Shown here: positions 154 through 3,021 of the stretch, in pieces
How the letters are laid out: each line of letters starts with the position of its first letter
How positions within the stretch are numbered: position 1 is the first letter of the stretch
Source: Spizellomyces punctatus DAOM BR117
Lineage: Eukaryota
Strand: one strand, 5' to 3'
Assembly: GCA_000182565.2 (NCBI GenBank)
Contig: KQ257451.1
DNA length: 64,000 nt
The notes under the pieces: model-generated
Told to the model about the DNA's origin: nothing
The model's database searches: none
What the model saw: the letters and a program-made list of their open reading frames with translations, nothing else
Position numbers and translations under genes: made by a program

Positions 154-3021
154 GAAGCCAAAGGATGAATCGGGTATCGAGTGGTGGGAACTCTTTGATG
201 ATCATCACAAGTTGGTATGTGGAACATTTGCGTTTAGGATACGTCATGGTGTGAGGTATCTAAAATGGAAAAAAAACGACAGCCCTATTACTACAATACC
301 AAGACGGGAGAAACGGAATGGCTTCGACCGACTGTGGGGACAATCATCCCAGTATGTGTCTTGATCGTGTTTATGGAATGGAACATTATGCTTATGTTTT
401 TTTGAATGTGTGAAACAGCTGACAGCTATACAGGTATGTAGAGTACCCTCGTTCATTTGCATGTCGTAAACGAAATAGAATAATATCTTTGACGATGCAC
501 TGTCAACAGAACTCTTCCATCGGAAAGCGCGTTTCCGTTCTCGTACAACAAGCTTCCATCGCCAATTCTTTTGCTGGCACGTCCTTGTTGGGTGCTGCAT
601 CACTGGCTGCCGATAGCCCTATGCGCTACATGTCAAATTCACCGCCCCAGCGATCCATACCCGAGGAAGTAGGTCATCCTCCTGTCCCTTCCCAAAACAC
701 CTCCTTGCTCATTCTTTCCATGCAGCCTGTATACCCCAGGCCAACAACCCGCTCAGGCTCCCATCCAGATATCAGTACGACCCAGCAATACTCTCCGCTC
801 GCCTCACCGAATATGAGACAAAGCAACTCGTCAAAGAATTTGTCTCAGTCACCTCCTATATCGGCTAGCGGGAATCGCACATCGCTTACTCAGTCATCTT
901 CCATGCATAGTCTTCGTGATGCGGCAGCAAGGGCGCGTACCTATGGGATTAGTACACCGGTTTTGAACCCAGGTACGTGCACTCTGTGTTTGTTTCGGTC
1001 GATGAACGTGCGCATTCTGAGCCTTTCTGTGACTATTAGAAGCAGCAGCATCAATGAGTCCATTGAATAGTCCAATAAATGCAAAGATACAATCCAGTCC
1101 CGAGCTACAATCTCCTATCAATGAGTCCGTGATCTTGGTTCATTTGAATCCGCAGTCCGATAGCTAACACTCTCTGTCACAGGGGAAAAGCCCTCCCAAA
1201 AGACTTGAAAGCGCAACTAAGCCAGTTTCGGATAGAAGGATTTGCGACAAAGTACTTTTCAGAACATAGAAAGGGAATATTTTTCCGACGAAGAGTCCCT
1301 GTTGAAAAGATGTTGGTGTACCAAAAGGTTTGTTCCAAATGTAGTATGTGCCATGGTTCCTTATCTAACAAAACATTGCAGGAGCCTCTGAAAGCCCCAT
1401 TAATGGTCTTGAACAAGGACTTGCACAAGGATGCACTAAAATGCTTCAAGCTCATACAAAAAATAATGAAATCCGACCCTGCCGCTGCGGTAACAGATAC
1501 ACATACACTACTGGAAAAAGGGATTGCCCATGGTGGCCTTCGAGATGAGATTTACGTGCAGATCTGCAAGGTATGTTTGTCCCCATCTTTTGTATCCTAT
1601 TTTACAAAGGTCCTTGACCAACTTTTGATATCAGCAATTGAAAAACAATCCCGATGGGTAGGTGTGTGCATTTTCGAGTCTAGGCGGATAACCCCGCTCC
1701 AAGGCACCTCTAACCAACCGAGTGAACGCAGAGAAAGCGTATACAGAGGCTGGATACTCATCTCAGTAGTCACCATCGCCTTTCCTCCTTCCAAAAACTT
1801 TGAAGATTACCTCAAAAACTTTGTTCAACAGCATCAAGGAAGCACGGCTGGAAAAGTCGCCATGGTCGTGCAACACTGTTGGAAAAAGCTGTTAAGAATC
1901 TGTAAAACGGGGCCACGCGGGAAAACCCCCACCACGGCCGAAATCCAACGGGCTCAGGTTCAGTGTTTTATGAAACTCCAATTTGTGTTTCGCTAATTCC
2001 AGTTAATTCTGTCCGCGCATTTCTAACGATCGCAAAGTTGTCTGTTTACAGGAGGCACCCTTTACTCAATCCCTGTTTGGAGAGCCTTTGGAGGATATTA
2101 TGAAAACGGAACTGGAAAAGAACCCCCACGCGAGTCTCCCTCGTATTCTCCCGTTCCTAGCAGATGCAATTATCCATTTGAATGGATGCAGAGCAGAGGG
2201 GATCTTTCGTGTACCGGGTGATGCGGACGCCGTGACTGGTACGACTTTTTTGTGACGAATTTCCTTGACGAAACATGTGAACTGAATTTAGGGGCAATAC
2301 AGAATTGCGCATGCGGGTGGAAAAGGGAGATTATTCCGTGATGGGAATCTCAGGTATGAGAAAAATGAACATGTCCTGCGGATAAGTGAACAGACTGCTG
2401 ACAGTATCGACAGACCCGAACGTACCAAGTTCTCTCTTAAAGCTCTGGCTACGAGATCTTGCAGACCCTCTCATCCCTTCAGAATTTTAATATCCTTCTA
2501 CAATGTCGTTTTTGCTTTCTTCCGTTTTATGCTACACATTCAGCATCGTATGTTATCCTTAACCACATATCTACTTCGAGCTGCATACAGGTTGGACAAG
2601 AAGAATCTCGAATACCCCTTTCCCAATCCGGTCCCGCTGCACTACGTATTATATCAAGTCTCCCAGGTGCTGTACCCTTTAGTTCTCACCCCGCTTTTTC
2701 AAAACTTTTTGCTCAAATACTAGTTTTACAGAAATCAATCAACGCGTCGTCAACTACATGATCAACTTTTTGCGAGTCATTGCCGAACCACAGAACCAAC
2801 CCTTCACCAAAATGACCATCAGCAACCTTGCCATGGTTTTTGCGCCAAATTTCTTGCGGTGTCCGAGTGATAACCCAACTGTTATCTTTGAGAGTACAAA
2901 GTGCGTATCGAAAATGCAAATGGATCTGTTTTTCTTGTTTTTGTGTAGCTGATTTTGTTGATTGTTAAGGTTCGAACAAGCCTTCCTCCGAATCCTTATA
3001 TCATACGTGCAAGAAAAGTAG
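154..3021 (+). CDS. WW + MyTH4 + RhoGAP protein (ARHGAP39/Vilse-like); 5' end lies upstream of the window; multi-exon
   Basis: Spliced exons give a WW domain ([25 protein letters not shown]), MyTH4 ([35 protein letters not shown]) and RhoGAP ([43 protein letters not shown]). Stop TAG at 3019-3021. Confidence 0.9.
2490..2574 (+). other. U12-type (minor spliceosome) AT-AC intron
   Basis: Donor ATATCCTTCT at 2490, branch site TCCTTAAC at 2556-2563, acceptor ..TCTAC at 2574. Removal restores [16 protein letters not shown] in frame. Confidence 0.9.

What the first reader, a model, noticed from the sequence alone, without database searches (positions are those of the whole stretch)
2490..2574. Textbook AT-AC minor (U12-type) intron in a fungal RhoGAP gene
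Seen: donor ATATCCTTCT, branch site TCCTTAAC with the branch A about 12 nt from the 3' end, AC acceptor, and no polypyrimidine tract between them. Splicing joins TA+T to give [15 protein letters not shown], the expected RhoGAP helix, and I found no GT-AG solution that restores the frame. Established: these are the U12 consensus signals, and yeasts and most Dikarya have lost the minor spliceosome. Inference: this organism keeps a functional minor spliceosome, standard gene callers will mis-annotate this gene, and the intron position may be ancestral to opisthokonts.
Basis: partly seen in the sequence, partly recalled or inferred. Interest (0 to 1): 0.75.

Follow-up and report, generated by a model that had tools for sequence, protein, structure and literature searches.

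The report
Known minor intron in chytrid RhoGAP
This is a genuine minor-spliceosome (AT-AC) intron in a chytrid fungus's ARHGAP39-like gene, sound but ordinary because the fungus is already known to have minor splicing, although sponges carry a minor-type intron at exactly the same spot.

Summary
Window 2490-2574 is an 85-nt intron with donor ATATCCTT, branch site TCCTTAAC, branch A 12 nt from the 3' end, AC acceptor and no pyrimidine tract.

Removing it joins TA+T into a Tyr codon. That Tyr is colinear, without a gap, in 122 of 123 homologues.

The window matches Spizellomyces punctatus gene SPPG_01117, a WW-MyTH4-RhoGAP protein 41% identical to human ARHGAP39. The public protein already uses this junction.

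RNA data show joint 2489^2575, but thinly: one read and one contig, each with 21 nt on the short side.

Minor snRNAs and minor introns in S. punctatus are already in print (PMC2396436, PMC10639083). The main inference is therefore correct but known.

One detail fails. Eight frame-restoring GT-AG excisions exist, though all destroy the conserved helix or keep intron sequence.

One thing is added here. Sponge-like ARHGAP39 loci and an unidentified fungal locus carry U12-type introns at the same codon and phase. Other lineages have U2-type introns there. A published human/mouse minor-intron gene list holds no ARHGAP gene. This supports an ancestral opisthokont position.

The parts
1..3021 (+). 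Coding part of the WW-WW-MyTH4-RhoGAP (ARHGAP39-like) gene that lies in the window: residues 42-665 of P0002 / SPPG_01117. The 5' end is cut by the window start and the stop codon ends at 3021.
   Evidence: The exact spliced match to P0002 with 16 introns. Pfam WW, MyTH4 and RhoGAP. 41% identity to human ARHGAP39 over 402 aa.
2414..2489 (+). Upstream exon, encoding [25 protein letters not shown] plus the TA of the Tyr codon.
   Evidence: GT..AG joint 2350/2411 (cut +3)
2490..2574 (+). 85-nt AT-AC U12-type intron, phase 2, inside the Tyr562 codon.
   Evidence: RNA joint 2489^2575 AT..AC
2490..2497 (+). U12-type 5' splice site ATATCCTT.
2556..2563 (+). U12-type branch site TCCTTAAC. The presumed branch A is at 2562, 12 nt from the 3' end.
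2573..2574 (+). AC 3' terminal dinucleotide.
2575..2666 (+). Downstream exon: T completing the Tyr codon, then [30 protein letters not shown].
   Evidence: joint 2663/2729 GT..AG (cut +3)
3022..3079 (+). Apparent 3' UTR up to a poly(A) addition site.
   Evidence: Loose ends of A-runs behind 3079 in raw RNA reads of X6 (table 7).

Best explanation
Window 2490-2574 is a bona fide U12-type (minor-spliceosome) AT-AC intron. It lies in the ARHGAP39-like gene SPPG_01117 of the chytrid Spizellomyces punctatus.

Inferred mechanism, from established knowledge of U12 splicing (recalled, not tested here):
- The U11/U12 di-snRNP recognises the ATATCCTT 5' splice site and the TCCTTAAC branch site together.
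- The bulged A at 2562 attacks the 5' splice site.
- U4atac/U6atac.U5 completes catalysis.
- The exons join at 2489^2575, rebuilding a Tyr codon (TA+T) in a conserved RhoGAP helix.

The intron sits at an old position. U12-type introns occupy the same codon and phase in sponge-like ARHGAP39 orthologues and in an unidentified fungal contig. It is therefore most likely inherited from the opisthokont ancestor. In other lineages it was converted to U2 type or lost.
For: Shown here:
- Sequence signals at the stated coordinates.
- The model with this junction reproduces P0002 exactly.
- Tyr562 is invariant in the 17-sequence alignment A1.
- The junction is gap-free in 122 of 123 homologues; the exception is the mis-modelled P0001.
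- RNA joint 2489^2575 'AT..AC' appears in 1 raw RNA read of X6 and in 1 contig of X5. The contigs of X5 also skip eight further introns of the gene, all GT..AG.
- All other frame-restoring canonical excisions wreck the conserved helix or keep intron sequence.
- The strict motif combination arose by chance in 2 of 400 simulations.

From papers (passages read):
- Minor snRNAs identified in S. punctatus (PMC2396436).

Position conservation. Of 61 metagenome loci, 56 reach both sides of the junction.
- Five carry a U12-like intron exactly there: L044 and L045 with ATATCCTC...AC; L048 with GTATCCTG and CCCTTAAC 11 nt before AG; L054 and L061 with GTATCCTC and TTCCTTGAC.
- L048, L054 and L061 are sponge-like. 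Their best named matches are the Geodia, Halichondria and Amphimedon ARHGAP39 proteins.
- A second RhoGAP gene on L054, L055 and L056 has GTATCCTTTT...CTCTTGAC...AG at the same site.
Against: - RNA support is thin. It is one read and one contig, each with only 21 letters on the short side. That is below the 31 letters the tool asks for to count a record as bridging.
- Coverage was too low to judge splicing efficiency or intron retention.
- The genome could not be searched for U11, U12, U4atac or U6atac. The 64-kb window holds none. Dependence on the minor spliceosome therefore rests on consensus signals and on the literature.
- For ancestry, 45 of the 56 junction-spanning loci read across the site with no intron; many of these look like transcripts.
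- Five loci have U2-type introns there: L039, L043, L015, L036 and L060.
- The branch sites in L044/L045 and L054/L061 lie about 31 and 27 nt from the 3' end, further than usual for U12 introns.
- The sponge assignment rests on protein similarity of 66-79% alone.
Confidence: 0.93

Rival explanations
1. The intron is an AT-AC intron removed by the major (U2-type) spliceosome, not the minor one.
For: A small class of U2-type AT-AC introns exists (recalled). No experiment here shows dependence on U11/U12. The genome could not be searched for minor snRNAs.
Against: - The donor ATATCCTT and branch site TCCTTAAC 12 nt from the 3' end, without a pyrimidine tract, match the U12 consensus. They do not match the pattern of the gene's 15 other introns, whose donors run GTATGT, GTACGT, GTAGGT, GTGCGT and similar, all with AG acceptors.
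- Orthologous sponge-like introns at the same site carry GTATCCT donors.
- The species is reported to have minor snRNAs (PMC2396436, PMC10639083).
Confidence: 0.03
2. The true transcript uses a GT-AG solution, as in the Spizellomyces sp. 'palustris' model P0001. That model removes about 2422-2482 and translates through 2490-2574.
For: Eight GT-AG and six GC-AG excisions give an open frame. A public annotation of the sister species uses one of them.
Against: - These models delete [22 protein letters not shown] or add non-homologous residues. That stretch is conserved in 122 of 123 homologues.
- The RhoGAP Pfam score drops from 110.8 to 67.8 bits.
- The only joints laid between 2414 and 2666 are 2489^2575.
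- No joint at 2422 was reported, though depth there was low.
Confidence: 0.01
3. The intron is U12-type, but the shared position with the sponge-like loci reflects independent insertion at the same proto-splice site rather than common descent.
For: Most junction-spanning loci (45 of 56) have no intron at the site. The subtypes differ: AT-AC in the fungi, GT-AG in the sponge-like loci. L049 has an intron 2 nt away, which shows some local turnover.
Against: - The codon and phase are identical in the chytrid, in an unidentified fungus and in two sponge-like paralogues.
- Gain of U12-type introns is described as extremely rare outside Physarum (passage of PMC10639083).
- Switching between AT-AC and GT-AG subtypes, and conversion of U12 to U2 type, are known routes (recalled).
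- An earlier scan note (e1-7351169, not tested here) reports an AT-AC intron splitting a conserved Tyr codon in a Basidiobolus-like RhoGAP gene.
Confidence: 0.12

Closest known systems
U12-type (minor-spliceosome) AT-AC introns, as catalogued across eukaryotes including Spizellomyces punctatus (Larue & Roy 2023, PMC10639083; Davila Lopez et al. 2008, PMC2396436)
   Same: ATATCCTT 5' splice site, TCCTTAAC branch site 12 nt from the 3' end, no pyrimidine tract, AC acceptor and non-zero phase. The host species is already reported to have minor snRNAs and minor introns.
   Different: Nothing in kind. I saw no paper that names this intron. A search for 'ARHGAP39' with 'minor intron' found 0 papers. 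The held supplement of PMC10639083 has no ARHGAP39 entry.
Animal ARHGAP39 (Vilse/CrossGAP family: WW-WW-MyTH4-RhoGAP)
   Same: Same domain order. 41% identity over MyTH4-RhoGAP, with Tyr562 aligned to human Tyr983. Sponge-like orthologues have a U12-type intron in the same codon and phase.
   Different: The sponge-like introns are GT-AG subtype and 347-351 nt long, against AT-AC and 85 nt here. The human and mouse minor-intron gene lists of Olthof et al. 2019 hold no ARHGAP gene, while MAPK12, SCN8A, DIAPH1 and MYO10 are present (supplements of PMC6717393). I did not see vertebrate genomic sequence, so whether a U2-type intron sits there in vertebrates is unknown.
U12-to-U2 intron conversion and minor-intron loss (Bartschat & Samuelsson 2010, PMC2846911; passages read)
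   Same: At this one site, different lineages show U12 AT-AC, U12 GT-AG, U2 GT-AG (L039, L043/L015/L036, L060) or no intron.
   Different: The direction and number of changes were not reconstructed here. The taxa of most environmental loci are unknown.

Membership tests
U12-type (minor) spliceosomal intron | 5' splice site matching /[AG]TATCCTT immediately at the exon end | tested here: met
   ATATCCTT at 2490-2497. The consensus itself is recalled.
U12-type (minor) spliceosomal intron | Branch site TCCTTRAY close to the 3' splice site (about 10-20 nt), with no polypyrimidine tract | tested here: met
   TCCTTAAC at 2556-2563. The branch A at 2562 is 12 nt from 2574. The intervening sequence is CACATATCTAC.
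U12-type (minor) spliceosomal intron | AT-AC or GT-AG termini, with the junction actually used in mRNA | tested here: met
   Joint 2489^2575 AT..AC in 1 raw RNA read (X6) and 1 contig (X5), each with a 21-nt short side, so support is thin. The public protein P0002 implies the same junction.
U12-type (minor) spliceosomal intron | Host genome encodes U11, U12, U4atac and U6atac and the U11/U12-specific proteins | not testable with these tools
   No genome is held and the window has 0 Rfam hits. The literature passages say S. punctatus has minor snRNAs (PMC2396436, PMC10639083).
U12-type (minor) spliceosomal intron | Splicing depends on the minor spliceosome (lost when U12 or U6atac is inactivated) | not testable with these tools
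   Needs an experiment.
U12-type (minor) spliceosomal intron | Conserved as U12-type at the same position in orthologues (supporting, not defining) | tested here: met
   5 of 56 junction-spanning metagenome loci carry U12-like introns at the same codon and phase. A second sponge-like RhoGAP gene does too.
ARHGAP39-like RhoGAP (WW-WW-MyTH4-RhoGAP) | Two WW domains, a MyTH4 domain and a C-terminal RhoGAP domain, in that order | tested here: met
   Pfam WW (2 stretches, 49 bits), MyTH4 at 352-454 (108.3 bits) and RhoGAP at 497-637 (110.8 bits) in P0002.
ARHGAP39-like RhoGAP (WW-WW-MyTH4-RhoGAP) | Full-length similarity to animal ARHGAP39 | tested here: met
   BLASTP against human ARHGAP39 gives 41% identity over 402 aa (E 2e-94), and 44% over the WW region. 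No reciprocal-best-hit or tree test was done.
ARHGAP39-like RhoGAP (WW-WW-MyTH4-RhoGAP) | GTPase-activating activity on Rho-family GTPases | not tested
   Only the conserved GIFRVPG arginine-finger motif is visible in the sequence.

The most novel reading that the evidence does not exclude
The AT-AC intron is an orthologous relic of a U12-type intron that already split this Tyr codon of the ARHGAP39 RhoGAP domain in the opisthokont ancestor. It survives as AT-AC in chytrids and another early fungus, and as GT-AG U12-type in two sponge-like paralogues. It was converted to U2 type or lost elsewhere, and the published human/mouse minor-intron gene list holds no ARHGAP gene. That would make this one site a compact natural series for studying subtype switching and U12-to-U2 conversion.
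Probability: 0.7. Interest if true: 0.3.

Novelty: already known. Interest (0 to 1): 0.15.

Why it matters
The intron is a clean textbook minor intron in a lineage where minor splicing is already documented, so it changes nothing about where the minor spliceosome occurs.

It has two modest uses.

- It gives a concrete case where an automated annotation fails. The Spizellomyces sp. 'palustris' model removes a conserved RhoGAP helix and translates the intron instead.
- It marks a site in the ARHGAP39 family where U12 AT-AC, U12 GT-AG, U2 GT-AG and intron-less states all occur in different opisthokont lineages. That is a small, tractable example for work on minor-intron conversion and loss.

Tried and rejected
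- Whole-genome search for U12 snRNA (RF00007) in the window's assembly: no genome is held.
- Rfam scan of the window at gathering thresholds: 0 matches, so no snRNA gene lies in these 64 kb.
- Other U12 candidates in the window: the 5 further RTATCCTT sites (20354, 27366, 36440, 43146 on the minus strand, 55904) have no branch-site-like motif within 400 nt and do not look like exon ends.
- GT-AG and GC-AG alternative models: listed and rejected on homology.
- Earlier notes of this scan: none for this genome. A sequence look-up with the Basidiobolus protein P0115 found none. A word search gave one note on another genome.
- Literature: 'ARHGAP39' with 'minor intron' found 0 papers. The held supplement of PMC10639083 lists Spizellomyces only in a species list, with no ARHGAP39. 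Its intron tables may exist elsewhere and were not visible to me.
- Bartschat & Samuelsson 2010 did not analyse Spizellomyces, from the passages seen.
- Run X2's contig across 2111-2770 is unspliced and uninformative. Run X1 (root metatranscriptome) covers only 2607-2877 and shows only the GT-AG joint 2663/2729.
- Summed BLASTX scores to Physocladia P0017 were ignored. That 1115-aa protein scored on top for nearly every locus at low identity.

Full report
**What is there**

- The upstream exon ends at 2489 with ...CCT TCA GAA TTT TA.
- Position 2490 begins ATATCCTTCT.
- TCCTTAAC occupies 2556-2563.
- The intron ends with AC at 2573-2574, and the next exon starts with T at 2575.
- The presumed branch A (2562) is 12 nt from the last intron base.
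- The 11 nt in between (CACATATCTAC) are not a pyrimidine tract.
- Joining TA+T gives ...[22 protein letters not shown].

**Whose gene it is**

The exon at 2052-2237 is 100% identical to two database proteins:
- SPPG_01117 of Spizellomyces punctatus DAOM BR117 (P0002, 665 aa).
- A protein of Spizellomyces sp. 'palustris' (P0001).

Elsewhere the window matches P0002 rather than P0001. A depth-first spliced alignment found 16 introns in the window that reproduce P0002 residues 42-665 letter for letter. Fifteen are GT-AG and one is the AT-AC intron 2490-2574. The window starts inside the coding region, so the first 41 residues lie upstream.

P0002 has two WW stretches, a MyTH4 domain (352-454) and a RhoGAP domain (497-637). 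It aligns to human ARHGAP39 at 41% identity over 402 residues, with Tyr562 opposite human Tyr983. Calling it a fungal ARHGAP39-like RhoGAP is therefore right.

**Is the junction real?**

1. Homology.
   - In a MAFFT alignment of the 123 proteins held at that point, 122 are colinear and gap-free across the junction and carry the Tyr.
   - The Tyr is invariant in the 17-sequence alignment A1.
   - The one exception is P0001, discussed under annotation below.
2. Alternatives.
   - I listed every excision between 2420 and 2666 that leaves an open frame.
   - Every one deletes part of [22 protein letters not shown] or keeps intron sequence as protein.
   - Only 2490-2574 keeps both flanks intact.
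3. RNA.
   - The joint 2489^2575 with ends AT..AC appears in one raw RNA-seq read of run X6 and in one contig of run X5.
   - X5's contigs also skip eight other introns of the gene, all GT..AG, so X5 is transcript-derived.
   - Both records have only 21 letters on the shorter side, fewer than the 31 the tool recommends.
   - Coverage of this part of the gene was about 1-3 fold, because the X6 reads pile up at the 3' end.
   - This support is real but thin, and it says nothing about splicing efficiency.
4. Chance.
   - The strict combination ATATCCTT, then TCCTTAAC, then AC 6-16 nt later arose in 2 of 400 first-order Markov simulations of the window. That test made no demand on frame or homology.
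   - The five other RTATCCTT sites in the window have no branch-site motif and are not exon ends.

**Does the organism have a minor spliceosome?**

I could not test this. No genome is held for the window, and the window holds no Rfam family at gathering score.

Passages I read say the following:
That pan-eukaryotic survey classified introns of annotated genomes, and the public model of this gene already contains the junction. This intron has very probably been catalogued, although I saw no table that lists it.

**Annotation**

- The S. punctatus model is right.
- The S. sp. 'palustris' model P0001 reads ...[42 protein letters not shown]....
- That model uses a GT-AG excision equivalent to 2422-2482 and translates through the minor intron.
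- It loses the conserved helix, and its RhoGAP Pfam score is 67.8 bits against 110.8 for P0002.
- The read-through translation has the same length as the window's.
- It is identical over the residues that cover the 5' splice site (NFNILLQC) and the branch site (VILN), but differs in between.
- This fits an 85-nt intron with conserved signals in the sister species. It is an inference from protein only.
The other homologues cannot be counted either way, because I do not know which of them have the intron.

**Is the position old?**

A scan of metagenome contigs with the alignment A1 returned 61 loci. Fifty-six reach both sides of the junction.
- 45 read across it without an intron. Many of these are single-frame and transcript-like.
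- 11 have an intron at the site or 2 nt from it, as listed next.

Exactly after the second base of the Tyr codon:

| Loci | Intron | Notes |
|---|---|---|
| L044, L045 | ATATCCTC...CCAC, 145 nt | Identical to each other across the intron; an unidentified fungus, about 46-55% identical to Glomeromycota and Gonapodya proteins; CCTTAAC about 31 nt from the 3' end |
| L048 | GTATCCTG...AG, 347 nt | CCCTTAAC 11 nt before AG |
| L054, L061 | GTATCCTC...AG, 351 nt | Identical to each other across the intron; TTCCTTGAC about 27 nt before AG |
| L039 | GTAAGT donor | Ordinary U2-type |
| L043, L015, L036 | GTACGT donor in L043 | Ordinary U2-type; L015 and L036 give the same read-through translation of the intron and were assigned to the L043 type without their donors being printed |
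| L060 | GTACGT donor | Ordinary U2-type |
| L049 | GTCAGT donor | Intron lies 2 nt upstream |

The proteins of L048, L054 and L061 are closest to sponge ARHGAP39:
- Geodia 80%, Halichondria 77% and Amphimedon 71% over one exon.
- 66-79% to Halichondria by BLASTX.

A second RhoGAP gene lies downstream on L054, L055 and L056. It has GTATCCTTTT...CTCTTGAC, then 13 nt, then AG at the equivalent codon, which is Phe there, in the same phase.

The human and mouse minor-intron gene tables of Olthof et al. 2019 contain MAPK12, SCN8A, DIAPH1 and MYO10 but no ARHGAP gene (supplements of PMC6717393). Stored files may be truncated.

Together this favours an ancestral U12-type intron at this codon in opisthokonts, with later subtype switches, U12-to-U2 conversion and loss. 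I put independent gain at about 0.12.

I could not check it.

**Verdict**

- This is a real, well-formed AT-AC minor intron.
- The kind of thing, its presence in this species and the junction itself are already public.
- The conserved position shared with sponge-like loci is a small addition.
- Interest is low.

Noticed in passing
P0001 (Spizellomyces sp. 'palustris' homologue), residues around 530-575: The public gene model mis-splices the orthologous region. It drops [22 protein letters not shown] and translates through the minor intron. Its RhoGAP Pfam score is 67.8 bits against 110.8 for P0002.
   Followed up: yes
L054:7455-7846, L055:2145-2536, L056:2758-3166: A second RhoGAP gene lies downstream of the sponge-like ARHGAP39 orthologue. 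It has a near-consensus U12-type GT-AG intron (GTATCCTTTT donor) at the equivalent codon and phase. It may be a tandem paralogue that kept the minor intron.
   Followed up: partly
window 419-433: A 15-nt micro-exon (CTGACAGCTATACAG, encoding LTAIQ) lies between introns 352-418 and 434-509. It is needed to reproduce P0002 exactly.
   Followed up: partly
window 7166-7332, 10924-11023, 48888-49190: Three runs of N (570 bases in all) interrupt the window. They are assembly gaps or masked stretches.
   Followed up: no
window 3700-4500: Downstream of the gene lie imperfect direct repeats of about 200-250 nt. The motif 'gtcacaa..cctacattgcaaaaaa.ccattctggaa...gtcggcacactgaactc' recurs near 3730 and 3910, and a second motif recurs near 4060-4200 and 4320-4450. 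This was seen by eye only.
   Followed up: no
P0017 (Physocladia obscura, 1115 aa) and P0007 (Thoreauomyces, 1161 aa): These homologues are nearly twice the usual length. P0017 scored on top for almost every locus at low identity, as if it held two copies or a fusion. That may be an annotation merge.
   Followed up: no
P0016 (168 aa, ENA): This fragment has a 21-residue insertion between GIT and DANVP. That is the position of the window's GT-AG intron 2354-2413, so it looks like a retained intron in that model.
   Followed up: no
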